A stretch of DNA of 64,000 nucleotides from Alphaproteobacteria bacterium. GTDB lineage: Bacteria > Pseudomonadota > Alphaproteobacteria > Bin95. Shown piece by piece: positions 32,305 to 44,320 of this stretch (its first letter is position 1; each line of letters begins with the position of its first letter). A program made the position numbers and the translations under genes. The stretch spans positions 96,001-160,000 of the forward strand of contig OZ219788.1 of the NCBI GenBank assembly GCA_964291285.2. Direction: 5' to 3'. The notes below the pieces were generated by a model that was given only the letters and a program-made list of their open reading frames with translations, was not told the origin of the DNA and did no database searches.

Positions 32305-32319
32305 ATTGTGGTATGATGG
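32305..32319 (+). promoter_or_regulatory. Putative extended -10 promoter (TGgTATGAT) of the left element
   Basis: ATTGTGGTATGATGG at the end of an AT-rich patch; the identical 15-mer occurs inverted at 44306-44320. Confidence 0.55.
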
Positions 32320-32514
32320 GTGCGAGGGAGGAGGCATCCGGAGCCGCTTCCCGCCCGCGCCGGCCCGGCGCGGAACGACCCCGATTCAGCCGACAGGCGA
32401 AGTGCGTCCTGCGCCTGCCTCGCGCCCGCGCAATCAGGCGCGCGAACCGCGCCGGCGCCGACACCCGCCCGCGCCCGCACGCGATACGCGCGAAACAGGG
32501 TCGCTCCCCGACGG
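32305..32514 (+). repeat. Left copy of a ~210-nt conserved non-coding leader (inverted relative to 44089-44320)
   Basis: Colinear blocks shared with the reverse complement of 44089-44320: ATTGTGGTATGATGG (15/15), TCCGGAGCCGC (11/11), CGCGCAATCAGGCGCGCGAACCGCGCCG (28/28; 32427-32454 vs 44165-44192), GATACGCGCG..AGGG..CGCTCCCCG. Confidence 0.85.
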
Positions 32515-32616
32515 GGCGGCGCTGCCCGTCAACGCCGCCCTCCCGGCCCGGCGCGGTCCCGTACCGCTGCCGGGCCTGCCTGTCGAACGCCAGCGGAACG
32601 AAAGGACCCGCACCCC

Positions 32617-33606
32617 ATGCCCGTCATCGAGCCCGCCGTCGCGCTTTCCACCCGCCAGGAAGCCTTCTGCCGCCACTACACCGCCTCCGGCAATGCCGCA
32701 CACGCCGCAAGGCAGGCCGGATATTCGGAGCGCTCCGCCCGCCAGACCGGATGCGCCCTGCTGGAGCGGCCCTGGATCGTCGAGCGCGTGCGCCGCATCC
32801 GCCTGTCGTGGCGGCGCACCGAACGCAACGAGGCCCGCATCCTGCTCGCCCGCTCGGAGCAGGCCTGGGACGCCGCCGTCGCCAGCGGCTCGGCCTACAT
32901 GATGCTGCGGGTGCTGCGCTTCCAGGCCGAGATCGCCGGGCTTGTCAGTCCGGCCGGCGCGAACCGGGCCCGCCTCTGGCCGCTGCCGCACGAGGACGAG
33001 TTCGGCGAGATCGAAGCGGGCGAGGCGCAGGAGACCGGCACCGAGCCCGGACCGCTCGCAGACGCCGTGCGCCGGGGGCGGGACCGGGCCGAACGAGCGC
33101 TCGCCCGCCACTGCGAGCGGCGCGAGGAGATGGAGGCGCAGGAGGGCTTCGACGGGGCCGCGCATGAGGAGGCCGCCCGCAGGCTCGCCGCGGCCGTCGA
33201 GGAGCGCACCCGCCTGCCCTTCGGCTTCGGCCCCCCGCCCGCGCCGGCAAACGACCTGCCGCCGGCCGACGACCCGCCCGAGGAAACCTACGAATACTGC
33301 CCCTGGGCCGCTGCCGACACGCCCGGCCACGAGGACAGCACCGACGACGACCGGGCCGACGGCGCCGAACATGACTGGCTCTACCAGCGCCGCAACGGCT
33401 ACGACGACATCTACGACCCCTGGGCCCCGGAGGAAGTCGAGGAGCGCAGGCAGAGCCGCCTCGAACGGGAAGAGCGGGGCGGCGACGAAGACGACGATTG
33501 GAGCGGACCGGCGGCGAGGGGGAAGAAGCAGAAAAAGAAGAAGGGGAAGAAGCGGAGGACCGGCCCGGAGAACGCCGGTTCCGCCCCGGACCATGACAAA
33601 ACATGA
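32617..33606 (+). CDS. Orphan phage terminase small subunit-like protein (N-terminal HTH) with an acidic and Lys-rich tail
   Basis: N-terminus LSTRQEAFCRHYTASGNAAHAARQAGYSERSARQTGCALLERPWI matches the TerS (Terminase_2) pattern L..KQ..F...Y....NA..AA..AGYS...A...G..LL..P.I; GAAAGGA RBS upstream. Confidence 0.7.
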   Translation: MPVIEPAVALSTRQEAFCRHYTASGNAAHAARQAGYSERSARQTGCALLERPWIVERVRRIRLSWRRTERNEARILLARSEQAWDAAVASGSAYMMLRVLRFQAEIAGLVSPAGANRARLWPLPHEDEFGEIEAGEAQETGTEPGPLADAVRRGRDRAERALARHCERREEMEAQEGFDGAAHEEAARRLAAAVEERTRLPFGFGPPPAPANDLPPADDPPEETYEYCPWAAADTPGHEDSTDDDRADGAEHDWLYQRRNGYDDIYDPWAPEEVEERRQSRLEREERGGDEDDDWSGPAARGKKQKKKKGKKRRTGPENAGSAPDHDKT

Positions 33607-33618
33607 CATTCCATGACA
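33588..33618 (+). repeat. Three CATGACA direct repeats at exact 10-bp spacing (left copy)
   Basis: CATGACA at 33592, 33602 and 33612; the 31-mer GGACCATGACAAAACATGACATtcCATGACA matches the reverse complement of 43808-43838 at 29/31 positions. Confidence 0.9.
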
Positions 33619-33721
33619 CGGCGCGGGGAGTCCCGCCGACCGTCGGGGCCTTGCCGGGCCGGCGGAAACGGGCCAATTGGCCGGACCGCGCGAACGCGCC
33701 GACCGCCGGGGAGCGCCGCCC

Positions 33722-42857: not shown

Positions 42858-43705
42858 CCGCCCATCGCGGCGGCCTTGCGCCGGAAGGCGCCGCTGCCCG
42901 CGAAGGCCATGAGCGCCTGCACCCGGTCGGTGAAATAGGCCCGCCGGTCGATCAGCAGGTCGAACCGCTCGCTGACCAGCGGCAGGAAAGGCAAGTGGAA
43001 CTGGCGCGCCATCGCCTCGATGCCGGGGGCCGCATCTGCCTCGCCCGCGGCGACCGCCGCCGCCGCATCGCTCTCGGTCCGCGCCAGCTCCGCGGAGGGA
43101 ATCAGGTCCGACGCCGTCAGCCCTTCCTTCGACAGGAGCGCCTCGAAGAGCGCCGCCGCGCCCGCCCCCGGCTGGCGCATGACGACCCGCCGGCCCCGGA
43201 GGTCGGACATGCAGCGCACCTGGCTGCGCATCGCCTCCGAGAGCACGAGCCCCCGCGCCCGGCCGGCCCATGCGACCAGCACCGAACCGCGCAGGCCGCG
43301 CGCAGCAACGGTCCGGACATTCCAGTCCGTTTCCTCCGGTATGTGCAGCCCGGCAAGCGCGGCGCGGCCGCCGGCGAAGGAGTCCAGGCCGTCGAGGCTG
43401 CCGTTCCAGAGCGTCGCAAGCCCCGAGCCGGATTCGCGCACCGCCCAGTCGAGGAGCGGGTCGTGGGAGCCGGTCAACACCTCCGGCCGCTCGGGGGACG
43501 CGGCGTCGCCGCCGCCCTCGATCCACGCCAGGATCTCCGTGCGCGGGAAGAGCAGCTTGCCGGTGATCCGCCGGTGCGGAATCCCGCCCGCGGCGGCGAG
43601 ATCGTACACCTTGCGTTCGCGCACGCGCAGAAGCGCCGCCACCTCCTTCGTCGTGAGGTAAGGCGGCTGCCCGCCGCCGGTTTCTTCGGGAAAGTCCTGA
43701 GCCAT
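42812..43705 (-). CDS. Excisionase-type HTH + periplasmic-binding-protein-like (molybdate-binding) transcriptional regulator (TaoR-like architecture)
   Basis: YLTTKEVAALLRVRERKVYDL..IP..TGKLLFPR (HTH_17), followed by GSHDPLL, GSLDGL, AGLH, RQPGAG, ERFDL (PBP_like); sits at the end of the Mo/W cluster. Confidence 0.8.
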   Translation of the reverse strand: MAQDFPEETGGGQPPYLTTKEVAALLRVRERKVYDLAAAGGIPHRRITGKLLFPRTEILAWIEGGGDAASPERPEVLTGSHDPLLDWAVRESGSGLATLWNGSLDGLDSFAGGRAALAGLHIPEETDWNVRTVAARGLRGSVLVAWAGRARGLVLSEAMRSQVRCMSDLRGRRVVMRQPGAGAAALFEALLSKEGLTASDLIPSAELARTESDAAAAVAAGEADAAPGIEAMARQFHLPFLPLVSERFDLLIDRRAYFTDRVQALMAFAGSGAFRRKAAAMGGYDLSEAGSVRWLSP

Positions 43706-43807
43706 GGTTCCCGGGATTAATACCACTGTTGACGGGTCGATACCGACGAAGCCGCGGCCCGCTTCGGACCGGGGCGGCGCAACGCGGCCAGCGGACCTCC
43801 CGGCGGA

Positions 43808-43865
43808 TGTCATGAGATGTCATGTTTTGTCATGGTCCTCCTGCCATGTGTCATGAGATGTCATG
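43808..43865 (-). repeat. Five CATGACA repeats (minus strand) spaced 10, 10, 21, 10 bp (right copy)
   Basis: TGTCATG on the plus strand at 43808, 43818, 43828, 43849 and 43859; inverted counterpart of 33588-33618. Confidence 0.9.
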
Positions 43866-44075
43866 TTCTGCATGCGCAGGGGTCATATGCTGTAGCCGTT
43901 TCAGGCATGAGGTCGTCCACTCTTTGGTCTCTTTCTGTATCTTGCGTTCACCGTCGCCCCGGCCCCGGAGCCGGGGCTCGTCCCTGACCGTTGCAGCCCG
44001 GTGGAGAGGGCGGAGGATGGACCCCGGCTCTCCGCTCCGCTCCGGTCGGGGTGACGGTTGAGGTTTTGCGGTCAT
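43851..44075 (-). other. Short 74-aa ORF or remnant in the position of the terS-like gene within the right element
   Basis: Strong RBS (TAAGGAGG) before the ATG at 44075, just after the conserved leader; ends inside the CATGACA repeats; no recognisable domain and largely made of a REP-like palindrome. Confidence 0.3.
43950..44058. repeat. REP-like palindrome doublet (REPIN-type)
   Basis: ACCGTCGCCCCGGCC..GAGCCGGGG..(spacer)..GGACCCCGGCTCTCCGCTCCGCTCCGGTCGGGGTGACGGT; the outer arms pair at 13/15 and each unit is itself a hairpin; resembles alphaproteobacterial GTCAYCCCGG-type REPs. Confidence 0.65.
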
Positions 44076-44088
44076 CGTTCCTCCTTAC

Positions 44089-44320
44089 TCCGACGGGGAG
44101 CGGGTCCCTTTTCCGCGCGTATCCCGCGCGGGCGCCTGTGCACGTGCCGGCGCGCGTGTCGCGGCGGCGCGGTTCGCGCGCCTGATTGCGCGCGCGAGGC
44201 GGAGGGCGCACGTCTCCCGTCAGCTTCTCACGTGTTTTCAGAAACCGGCGCCGCTCGGCCGCGCAACGCCCGGGGACGCGGCTCCGGAGTCCGCTTCCCT
44301 GGGGACCATCATACCACAAT
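44089..44320 (-). repeat. Right copy of the conserved non-coding leader with extended -10 promoter block
   Basis: Reverse complement shares the 15-bp, 11-bp, 28-bp and GATACGCGCG/CGCTCCCCG blocks, in the same order, with 32305-32514. Confidence 0.85.

What the first reader, a model, noticed from the sequence alone, without database searches (positions are those of the whole stretch)
32305..44320. Candidate novel element: a Mo/W-uptake island bracketed by two inward-facing promoter-leader-ORF-phased-repeat modules, with no transposase or integrase
Seen: both ends of this 12-kb block carry the same four-part module in inverted orientation: (1) an identical ATTGTGGTATGATGG, (2) a ~210-230 nt leader with 11- and 28-bp identical blocks, (3) an ORF with an RBS, and (4) 10-bp-phased CATGACA repeats (31-bp match, 29/31). 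The cargo between the inner repeats (33619-43807) consists only of Mo/W transport-type genes and their regulator. The left ORF is a small-terminase-like protein. No recombinase and no obvious target-site duplication is visible. Inference: this is a dispersed element family whose paired copies delimit or mobilise cargo. Possible routes are TerS-directed packaging by a helper phage/GTA, or recombination/inversion between the copies.
Basis: partly seen in the sequence, partly recalled or inferred. Interest (0 to 1): 0.85.

Follow-up and report, generated by a model that had tools for sequence, protein, structure and literature searches.

The report
Paired terminase-like repeat modules flanking genes
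The two inverted modules are real members of a roughly 100-copy repeat family found across this bacterial genus, and the copies tend to sit as inward-facing pairs about 12 kb apart around ordinary host genes, an arrangement no described element explains.

Summary
Both ends of 32305-44320 carry the same module in inverted orientation: promoter-like 15-mer, conserved leader, ORF, and CATGACA heptads at 10-bp phasing.

The module is one of 98 copies in this 6.1-Mb genome and occurs in 15 of 16 other genomes of the genus. Modules are self-contained intergenic insertions, because relatives show empty sites. They are randomly oriented relative to neighbouring genes. They carry one of three element ORFs. 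P1 has a small-terminase-type DNA-binding domain. P2 and a small ORF have no known family.

Bracketing is not chance. Among neighbouring copies, 12 are convergent at 10-17 kb where 2.2 are expected (0 of 5000 simulations reach 12). Within 20 kb the counts are 15 convergent, 2 divergent and 7 tandem.

At one pair, both flanks and the interior are collinear in all 16 relatives, with or without modules. The Mo/W cluster occurs with two, one or no modules in other species. No transposase, integrase or genus-wide terminase/capsid partner was found.

Best guess, with low confidence: these are terminase-small-subunit-plus-pac-like cassettes that mark capsid-sized segments. The mechanism is unproven.

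The parts
32262..32319 (+). Left module: AT-rich upstream stretch and promoter-like site (15-mer 32305-32319; TGnTATGAT, with TATGAT at 32312-32317)
   Evidence: conserved in 48 of 98 copies at 4 or fewer mismatches. Not called by the simple sigma-70 scan.
32320..32616 (+). Left module leader, L-type subfamily (cluster 5), non-coding, GC-rich, with the family core GCGCGCGCAATCAGGCGCGCGAACCGCGCC
   Evidence: nhmmer; consensus; no Rfam family
32617..33606 (+). P1: 329-aa element protein with a small-terminase-type N-terminal helix-turn-helix. Its stop codon lies inside the heptad array.
   Evidence: Pfam PF03592 E=1.8e-11; Foldseek top hits are SF6/SPP1-type G1P DNA-binding domains; annotated phage TerS genes by tblastn; 10 full-length copies in this genome
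33592..33618 (+). Left heptad array: CATGACA x3, period 10 bp
   Evidence: family-wide association
33677..36294 (+). modA, modB, modC-like molybdate ABC transporter (cargo)
   Evidence: Pfam SBP_bac_11, BPD_transp_1, ABC_tran+TOBE
36314..37489 (-). MOT1-family MFS molybdate transporter (cargo)
   Evidence: Pfam MFS_MOT1 E=4.7e-38
37623..39958 (+). Second ABC system: permease-like ORF (no Pfam hit), ATPase, PBP_like_2 binding protein. The Tup-like assignment is inferred.
39962..42857 (+). Third ABC system: Peripla_BP_2 binding protein, permease-like ORF (no Pfam hit), ATPase. Substrate not shown.
42812..43813 (-). HTH_17 + PBP_like regulator. The listed ATG lies in the last heptad, so the true start is probably downstream of it.
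   Evidence: sequence
43808..43865 (-). Right heptad arrays: CATGACA x2, 14 nt, CATGACA x3, period 10 bp
   Evidence: (D13, I3)
43851..44075 (-). 74-aa ORF with no Pfam hit. It keeps the ribosome-binding site and start (ATGACCGCAA) of family ORF P2, and the rest is replaced. Read as a remnant.
44076..44305 (-). Right module leader, R-type subfamily (cluster 3)
44306..44400 (-). Right module promoter-like site (15-mer 44320-44306; TATGAT 44313-44308; TTAACA upstream) and AT-rich upstream stretch

Best explanation
Each end of the block is one copy of a genus-wide family of self-contained intergenic cassettes. A cassette has four parts:
1. An extended -10 type promoter-like site.
2. A 230-300-nt conserved GC-rich leader.
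3. One of three element-specific ORFs or a remnant: P1 (a small-terminase-derived helix-turn-helix protein), P2 (about 200 aa, no known family), or a small ORF of about 45 aa.
4. Two to five CATGACA heptads phased at 10 bp.

The cassettes are separate insertions beside ordinary host genes. The Mo/W genes are not cargo of a transposon.

Proposed working, which is inferred and not shown: an oligomer of P1 binds the phased heptads as SPP1/SF6-type small terminases bind the direct repeats of their pac region. This would make a polar, pac-like site. A helper phage's large terminase and capsid would then package away from the cassette. A cassette would not carry itself, but it would carry a convergent partner lying within one small-capsid headful. 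That would favour inward-facing pairs about 10-14 kb apart and make modules hot spots for rearrangement.

Shown here: anatomy, copy number, distribution, empty sites, the pair rule, and the terminase-type DNA-binding domain.
Inferred: binding of P1 to the heptads, any packaging, and the reason for the spacing.
For: Family:
- 98 leader copies.
- 84 of 98 have a same-strand heptad array within 1.5 kb downstream, and 0 of 98 have a reverse one within 4 kb.
- 139 of 161 arrays lie 3 kb or less downstream of a leader.

Pair rule:
- 12 convergent neighbouring pairs lie at 10-17 kb, against 2.2 expected under random placement and 4.0 under shuffled strands. 0 of 5000 simulations of either kind reach 12.
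- Within 20 kb the counts are 15 convergent, 2 divergent and 7 tandem; binomial p=0.0012 for 15 against 2.
- By array-to-array distance, 12 convergent and 0 divergent pairs lie at 10-15 kb.
- Opposite-strand heptads peak 8-18 kb downstream of leaders and not upstream.
- Pair interiors share no gene family beyond P1 and common paralogues.

P1:
- Pfam Terminase_2.
- Foldseek hits 1-10 are all small terminases. The SF6 G1P DNA-binding domain matches at 41-42% identity and rmsd 1.3-1.7 A.
- 33 phage records match; the 15 listed lie mostly under genes annotated terminase small subunit.
- P1 is intact in 12 of 16 other genus genomes. dN/dS is 0.26-0.51.
- All 12 Terminase_2 hits in this genome are element ORFs.

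The SPP1 pac region holds three sets of direct repeats spanning the promoters and the start of the small-terminase gene (PMC4737164, passages read).

Modules are insertions and breakpoints: empty sites, mosaic interiors in G012, and hydantoinase and mod loci apart in most relatives.
Against: - No partner machinery is conserved. There is one phage head cluster in this genome, and its large terminase is in only 3 of 17 genus genomes.
- Pfam large-terminase families: PF20441 in 3 of 17 genomes, PF03237 in 3 of 17 (one hit weak), PF03354 in 0 of 17. There is no RcGTA-type capsid.
- Only 10 of 98 modules carry full-length P1. Most carry P2, the small ORF, or nothing.
- The Pfam match covers only the helix-turn-helix, and the model is poor outside it (pLDDT 60).
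- Headful packaging from a pac site explains an upper limit on spacing. It does not explain the scarcity of pairs under about 8 kb.
- Pairs are old and orthologous across species, so the counts from G010, G012 and G016 are not independent.
- The promoter is not called by the simple scan.
- The leader shows no supported RNA structure.
Confidence: 0.33

Rival explanations
1. The family is a purely selfish, non-autonomous interspersed repeat, moved in trans by an unidentified enzyme or spread by recombination. The excess of convergent pairs is a by-product of insertion preference or of selection against other arrangements, and it has no function.
For: - Presence/absence polymorphism of single modules occurs: G015 has only the right module at the pair-4 locus, and G012 is empty where G000 has the solo module C2_43550.
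- Orientation is random relative to neighbouring genes: 30 same against 32 opposite downstream.
- Many copies are decayed or carry nested insertions.
- IS elements use the modules as landing sites.
Against: - No transposase, terminal inverted repeats or target duplication were found.
- Loss of direct repeats by deletion could explain few tandem pairs. It cannot explain 15 convergent against 2 divergent, or the 10-14-kb peak.
- P1 and P2 are kept open and under purifying selection across species.
- Heptads, core leader and promoter-like site are conserved in all subfamilies.
Confidence: 0.25
2. The modules are host-domesticated architectural or regulatory sites. Proteins bound to the phased heptads (P1, P2 or a host factor) form polar barriers or loop anchors. 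Convergent pairs then delimit chromosomal domains of about 12 kb, or confine transcription or replication.
For: - Convergent polarity and a narrow spacing.
- Pairs flank conserved, vertically inherited gene blocks and persist at orthologous sites across species.
- 10-bp phasing puts the sites on one face of the helix (read from the sequence).
- Interiors are reshuffled while staying 8.5-15 kb long.
Against: - The genus members G013 and G001 have almost no modules, and G003 lacks them at the locus tested. The modules are therefore dispensable.
- No functional theme was shown for the interiors.
- Nothing here tests looping or barrier activity.
- The element-encoded multi-copy ORFs look more like a mobile element than a host system.
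Confidence: 0.2
3. One reading: the pair and the genes between form one mobile island, like a composite transposon or an integrase-less satellite, that moves the Mo/W genes.
For: - In G012 the same cargo (87% identical from array to array) is again flanked by inward-facing modules. It is present twice, on two replicons, at 99.3% identity over 14,099 bp, and one duplication boundary lies inside a module leader.
- The flanks of the Mo/W unit differ between G000, G012 and G016.
Against: - The cargo occurs without modules in G008 (split over two loci) and in G001, and with one module in G016.
- At another pair, flanks and interior are collinear in all 16 relatives, whether or not modules are present.
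- Large duplications in G000 are mostly not bounded by modules: in 5 of the 60 largest listed, one end lies near a leader, and in none do both ends.
- No transposase or integrase is present.
Confidence: 0.07
4. The bracketing is chance in a genome crowded with randomly placed repeats.
For: At 98 copies in 6.1 Mb, at least one convergent pair within 12.1 kb is expected in 99.6% of random placements.
Against: The genome-wide excess and spacing of convergent pairs: 0 of 5000 simulations reach the observed 12 at 10-17 kb, and array-based counts are 12 convergent against 0 divergent at 10-15 kb.
Confidence: 0.03

Closest known systems
pac region plus small-terminase gene of SPP1/SF6-type phages
   Same: The small-terminase-type helix-turn-helix domain matches at 41-42% identity to the SF6 G1P DNA-binding domain. 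A promoter, the terS-like gene and sets of short direct repeats lie together (PMC4737164 passages).
   Different: - There are about 100 chromosomal copies.
- No large terminase, portal or capsid gene lies next to any copy.
- The repeats lie at the 3' end of the gene.
- The C-terminal two thirds of P1 are unrelated to phage TerS by Pfam.
- Most copies lack P1.
Phage satellites (PICI/SaPI type) that carry their own small terminase
   Same: The size class of the delimited segments matches: median 13.6 kb outer and 12.1 kb inner. There is a terS-like gene without a full virion gene set. The properties of satellites used for this comparison are recalled, not tested here.
   Different: - No integrase, repressor, replication module or att direct repeats are present.
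- The interior is ordinary, syntenic host DNA.
- The flanking modules are inverted, and each is multi-copy.
Non-autonomous interspersed repeats (REP/REPIN, MITE-like, Correia-type elements)
   Same: They are high-copy and intergenic, carry a promoter-like site, show presence/absence between relatives, are hot spots for IS insertion and rearrangement, and form subfamilies.
   Different: - They are 0.4-1.4 kb long.
- They encode conserved proteins.
- No terminal inverted repeats or hairpin symmetry were seen.
- Copies obey a long-range convergent pairing rule.
Composite transposons with inverted flanking IS copies (Tn10/Tn5 type; recalled)
   Same: Two inverted copies of one element bracket unrelated genes.
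   Different: There is no transposase. The interior stays collinear with its flanks in relatives that lack the modules. The two flanking copies usually belong to different subfamilies.

Membership tests
Phage small terminase (Pfam Terminase_2, SPP1/SF6 G1P type) | N-terminal helix-turn-helix DNA-binding domain | tested here: met
   PF03592 E=1.8e-11, residues 11-70. Foldseek: 4zc3 and 2cmp at TM 0.82-0.84 and 41-42% identity.
Phage small terminase (Pfam Terminase_2, SPP1/SF6 G1P type) | Central oligomerisation domain and C-terminal part that binds the large terminase | tested here: inconclusive
   Only profile positions 2-61 of 141 match. Long helices follow the HTH in a low-confidence model. 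The longest phage match reaches residue 163 at 24% identity.
Phage small terminase (Pfam Terminase_2, SPP1/SF6 G1P type) | Encoded beside a large terminase within a virion gene cluster | tested here: not met
   All 12 hits in the genome are element ORFs. The only large terminase lies at C2:89.8-91.4 kb, away from them. Large-terminase families are in at most 3 of 17 genus genomes each.
IS / composite transposon / MITE | Transposase, in the element or identifiable in trans | tested here: not met
   No transposase among the ORFs of the block. P1 and P2 have no catalytic domain by Pfam. A trans-acting enzyme was not searched for.
IS / composite transposon / MITE | Terminal inverted repeats and target-site duplication | tested here: inconclusive
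   At four filled-versus-empty comparisons the intergenic DNA was too diverged to place exact ends or a duplication. No inverted copy of the heptads was seen at the 5' ends on reading.
Phage satellite (PICI-like) or integrative island | Integrase and att direct repeats; island absent from relatives with flanks joined | tested here: not met
   No integrase. The modules are inverted. The interior is present and collinear in relatives that lack modules.
Gene transfer agent | Conserved head, portal and terminase cluster in the genus | tested here: not met
   One HK97-type capsid hit and one sub-threshold portal hit lie in a single integrase-associated cluster. Its large terminase is in 3 of 17 genus genomes.
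Riboswitch or other Rfam RNA in the leader (for example Moco) | Match to a curated covariance model | tested here: not met
   0 matches at gathering score in the whole window. Only chance-level hits (E of 0.69 or more) in 43750-44420.

The most novel reading that the evidence does not exclude
The genus carries a chromosome-wide system of polar, protein-bound heptad sites with their own promoters and DNA-binding proteins. The sites work in convergent pairs to parcel host DNA into units of about 12 kb. The units would be either capsid-sized transfer units for hijacked phage particles, in which the dispersed cassettes promote their own and their neighbours' transfer, or loop or barrier domains. 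Either would be a kind of element not described so far.
Probability: 0.3. Interest if true: 0.9.

Novelty: categorically new. Interest (0 to 1): 0.78.

Why it matters
If the convergent spacing reflects a physical ruler such as a capsid, it would show dispersed, integrase-less terminase/pac cassettes shaping which chromosomal segments are transferred. That would be a new route between generalized and lateral transduction. If it reflects looping or barriers, it would be a bacterial case of an orientation-dependent pairing rule.

The family also matters in more ordinary ways. It accounts for synteny breakpoints and assembly breaks, and it gives IS elements preferred landing sites in these genomes. 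It provides two conserved multi-copy proteins, P1 and P2, and a simple DNA motif that can be tested directly.

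Tried and rejected
**RNA in the leader**
- Rfam at gathering score gave nothing in the window. The permissive search gave only chance-level hits.
- Local RNAalifold on 92 of the 98 leader copies gave two short invariant hairpins and no convincing covariation.
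- The single-sequence fold had z = -1.18.
- A structured-RNA reading of the leader is therefore not supported. It is not excluded, because the alignment across subfamilies is rough.

**Leader as 5' UTR of host genes:** rejected, because neighbouring gene orientation is random.

**Replicative inversion as the origin of pairs:** rejected for pair 4, because the interior is collinear with its flanks in module-free genomes.

**Pair composition:** no clear rule by subfamily. 6 of the 15 pairs are L+R, 2 are L+L, 0 are R+R, and the rest include ambiguous types. This is not significant.

**Large duplications in G000:** 540 segments of 2.5 kb or more exist. Of the 60 largest listed, 5 have one end near a leader and none has both.

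**Sequencing runs:**
- All four runs are kept as contigs only.
- In three runs of one organism, contigs break at the modules and module word depth is about 20-50 times that of the flanks.
- The contig covering the interior has the same depth as the flank contigs.
- This gives no sign of amplification, but contig depth is a weak measure. The short-sided joints listed are repeat artefacts.
- No inversion or excision is shown. The RNA run is a metagenome of relatives and says nothing about transcription here.

**Organism naming:** the plasmid collection gave no DNA match to the left module and only matches below 60% identity to the hydantoinase. This was no help in naming relatives.

**P1 homologues in the sister genus:** the gene context of the weak homologues (loci L036, L037) was looked at, but I scanned the wrong frames, so nothing was learnt.

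**P2:** no Pfam family at E up to 1, no fold match, and atlas hits below 0.9.

**G005 draft genome:** it shows the pair-4 interior inverted relative to the left flank, with a module at the junction. However, the far end has a module in an unexpected orientation at a contig end, so this is not counted as proof of module-to-module inversion.

**Literature:** four full-text searches returned no paper whose title or abstract describes this family or such a pairing rule. Only listings were read, except for passages of PMC4737164. Supplements were not consulted.

**Not done:** Complex prediction and the search of protein representatives were not used.

Full report
**1. Observation**

The 15-mer ATTGTGGTATGATGG is present exactly twice in the window, at 32305 (+) and 44320 (-), against 0.01 expected.

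The two downstream leaders share inverted blocks of 48, 45 and 39 nt at 79-87%. The inner ends share a 46-nt inverted block that holds the CATGACA heptads (sequences).

- Left module: promoter-like site, leader of about 297 nt, a 329-aa ORF (32617-33606), and three heptads at 33592-33618.
- Right module, minus strand: promoter-like site, leader of about 231 nt, a 74-aa ORF (44075-43851), and two plus three heptads at 43865-43808.

Between the modules lie:
- modABC-like genes;
- a MOT1-family transporter;
- an ABC system with a PBP_like_2 binding protein;
- an ABC system with a Peripla_BP_2 binding protein;
- an HTH_17 + PBP_like regulator.

Hydantoinase A/B genes lie to the left. To the right is an ORF with only a sub-threshold Pfam hit, to arginine deiminase. 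No recombinase lies in the block.

**2. The module is a high-copy family**

The window is G000:C4:96001-160000 of a 6.13-Mb, 68% GC genome in five contigs.

- nhmmer with either leader finds 95 and 93 hits, which merge to 98 loci.
- 84 of 98 are followed within 1.5 kb on the same strand by two or more heptads at 10-bp spacing. 0 of 98 have a reverse-oriented array within 4 kb.
- Conversely, 139 of 161 arrays lie 3 kb or less downstream of a leader.
- The heptad occurs 901 times against 312 expected from base composition.
- The 5' part is conserved: an AT-rich stretch of about 70 nt, a TTGACA-like hexamer, and TGnTATGAT. Because the spacer is 15 nt, the simple sigma-70 scan does not call it. 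'Promoter' is therefore an inference.

Leaders fall into three main subfamilies. All share the same core blocks.

| Cluster | Copies |
|---|---|
| 3 (R-type) | 26 |
| 5 (L-type) | 24 |
| 14 | 17 |

Each subfamily has its own ORF:

| Subfamily | ORF |
|---|---|
| L-type | P1, 329 aa, 10 full-length copies |
| R-type | P2, about 200 aa, 4 full-length copies plus remnants |
| third type | a small ORF of about 45 aa |

The window's left copy is a full L-type module. The right copy is an R-type module that keeps only the start of P2.

**3. The proteins**

P1:
- It matches Pfam Terminase_2 over the helix-turn-helix only.
- An AlphaFold model from a 13-sequence alignment is confident only there (pLDDT about 90 for residues 11-60, mean 60).
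- Foldseek ranks small terminases in places 1-10, led by the SPP1-like/SF6 G1P protein and its DNA-binding domain.
- tblastn finds 33 phage records. The 15 listed lie mostly under genes annotated as terminase small subunit, at 24-48% identity, reaching residue 163 at most.
- P1 is open in nearly all copies in 12 of 16 other genus genomes. Many positions are invariant up to residue about 290. dN/dS is 0.26-0.51.
- All 12 Terminase_2 hits in the genome are element ORFs.
- 332 relatives were found in the large protein collection; the 120 listed are 68-99% identical. Where named, they are called terminase small subunit of an alphaproteobacterium.

P2:
- It has no Pfam family, no fold match and no atlas lead.
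- The model shows a coiled-coil hairpin followed by two beta-hairpin-plus-helix repeats.
- It is multi-copy and open in 14 of 16 other genus genomes and in 0 of 20 genomes of two sister genera. dN/dS is 0.38-0.53.

Both ORFs commonly end inside the first heptads, giving C-termini such as ...HDKT or ...HDIS.

**4. Distribution and nature of the copies**

- The family is found in 15 of 16 other genomes of the genus, in 1 of 8 genomes of two sister genera, and weakly in 2 of 16 genomes from 16 other families.
- Orientation relative to neighbouring genes is random: 30 same against 32 opposite downstream, and 34 against 25 upstream, among confident calls. The modules are therefore not 5' regions of host operons.
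- They are insertions. At the pair C2:331528-344444, G013 and G003 have 24/59-bp and 56/39-bp gaps where G000 has 1146 and 2560 bp.
- G015 has only the right-hand module there.
- G012 is empty where G000 has the solo module C2_43550.
- Exact ends and target duplications could not be read, because the intergenic DNA is too diverged.

**5. The bracketing is a rule**

Among neighbouring copies in G000:
- Within 20 kb there are 15 convergent, 2 divergent and 7 tandem pairs.
- At 10-17 kb there are 12 convergent pairs. 2.2 are expected under random placement and 4.0 under shuffled strands. 0 of 5000 simulations of either kind reach 12.

Measured between arrays, 12 convergent pairs lie at 10.2-14.3 kb and no divergent pair lies at 10-15 kb. 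The summed profile shows opposite-strand heptads peaking 8-18 kb downstream of leaders and nothing upstream.

The median unit is 13.6 kb outer and 12.1 kb inner. Interiors share no gene family beyond P1 and common paralogues, so these are different loci.

Triple arrays in G012, G010 and G016 give 6, 5 and 4 convergent, 0 divergent, and 1, 6 and 0 tandem neighbours within 20 kb, by my reading. Several of these are orthologues of G000 pairs, so they are not independent confirmation.

**6. What the pairs are not**

The interior is not moved with the modules:
- At pair 4, the left flank, the 11.5-kb interior and the right flank are collinear in all 16 other genus genomes.
- The Mo/W cluster is collinear in G016 with a module only on the modA side.
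- It is split over two module-free loci in G008, and is shorter and module-free in G001.
- In G012 it is again flanked by inward-facing modules (87% identity from array to array). It is present twice, at 99.3% over 14,099 bp on two replicons, and one duplication boundary lies inside a leader.

Modules act as breakpoints:
- Hydantoinase and modABC are apart in most relatives. In G007 each sits next to its own P1-type module.
- G012 units are mosaics of segments that in G000 lie next to other modules, yet they remain 8.5-15 kb long.

So modules act as recombination and breakpoint sites. Module-adjacent segments stay module-adjacent, but the pair plus its interior is not a transposon.

**7. Search for a packaging partner**

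- G000 has a single phage head cluster at C2:85-97 kb: portal, capsid, HNH, large terminase, an IS, and an integrase.
- Its large terminase is found in 3 of 17 genus genomes.
- Three Pfam large-terminase families are found in 3, 3 (one weak) and 0 of 17 genus genomes.
- No genus-wide partner for P1 was found. A packaging role would need an incoming phage.

**8. Mechanism**

The only functional handle is P1 next to phased direct repeats and a promoter-like site. This recalls the SPP1/SF6 pac region, which holds three sets of direct repeats across the promoters and the start of the small-terminase gene (PMC4737164, passages read).

A polar site from which DNA is packaged away from the cassette would explain three things:
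- why convergent neighbours within one small headful could help each other's transfer;
- why divergent neighbours gain nothing;
- why spacing has a capsid-like upper bound.

It does not explain the lack of short spacings, the P1-less majority of copies, or the missing terminase. I hold it at about one in three.

A selfish repeat with an unexplained insertion or retention bias, and an architectural barrier or loop role, are the main rivals. Chance is excluded for the genome-wide pattern. It cannot be excluded for this one pair taken alone.

**9. Novelty**

Four full-text searches returned no paper whose title or abstract describes the family or a convergent pairing rule for bacterial repeats. 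Only listings were read, and subscription literature is not covered.

The parts are familiar: a terminase-type HTH, phased repeats, and an interspersed repeat family. The combination is not matched by any system I could test it against. That combination is about 100 self-contained cassettes with three private ORFs, no recombinase, and inward-facing pairs about 12 kb apart around syntenic host genes.

Noticed in passing
G000 C2:1256608, C2:1315729, C1 and C3 copies; locus L079:4985-6450: IS3-family elements (HTH_Tnp_1 and rve ORFs) with ends GGAGTGGGCCCC... sit about 6 nt after the last heptad at 12 of the 22 ends listed. This suggests site-specific insertion next to the arrays. Short solo end-fragments also occur there.
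   Followed up: partly
locus L073:16394-18422 and at least 16 other places in G000: A 2.0-kb IS with a 599-aa DDE_Tnp_1 transposase has at least 16 copies at 100% listed identity. It is repeatedly inserted in module leaders or promoters, for example at C1:257951, C2:676624, C3:941313 and C4:199370.
   Followed up: partly
G000 C2:85300-97000 (loci L069, L070): A small integrase-associated phage head cluster holds a portal, a 454-aa capsid protein, HNH, a large terminase, an IS and an integrase, with no tail genes seen in the part scanned. It could be a satellite or a prophage remnant. Its large terminase is in only 3 of 17 genus genomes.
   Followed up: partly
G000, whole genome: The genome has very many large near-identical duplications between contigs: 540 segments of 2.5 kb or more at 85% identity or more, up to 35.6 kb at 99.4%. 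This may explain the 4.77% 'contamination' figure.
   Followed up: no
window 33592-33618 and 43808-43834: Three heptads at 10-bp spacing encode a mini-frame, ATG ACA AAA CAT GAC ATn nCA TGA (MTKHDI-stop). They also supply the stop codon of P1, P2 and many small ORFs, and the listed ATG of the downstream regulator lies in the last heptad.
   Followed up: no
window 44040-43990 (-) and after many arrays elsewhere in G000: A second short palindromic repeat of the type GTCACCCCGG...CCGGGG is nested in or beside many modules, including inside the right module's 74-aa ORF.
   Followed up: no
G012 C1:111216-125314 and C3:1-14098 (loci L059-L061): The whole Mo/W unit with its modules is duplicated on two replicons at 99.3% identity. 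The left boundary is unknown because the C3 contig starts there.
   Followed up: partly
window 32320-32360 and the family consensus: Just after the presumed transcription start, all subfamilies keep a near-palindrome (GCGGCATCCGGAGCCGC, replaced in some copies by another palindrome, GTCCGCGCGGAC). It could be an operator or an RNA hairpin.
   Followed up: no
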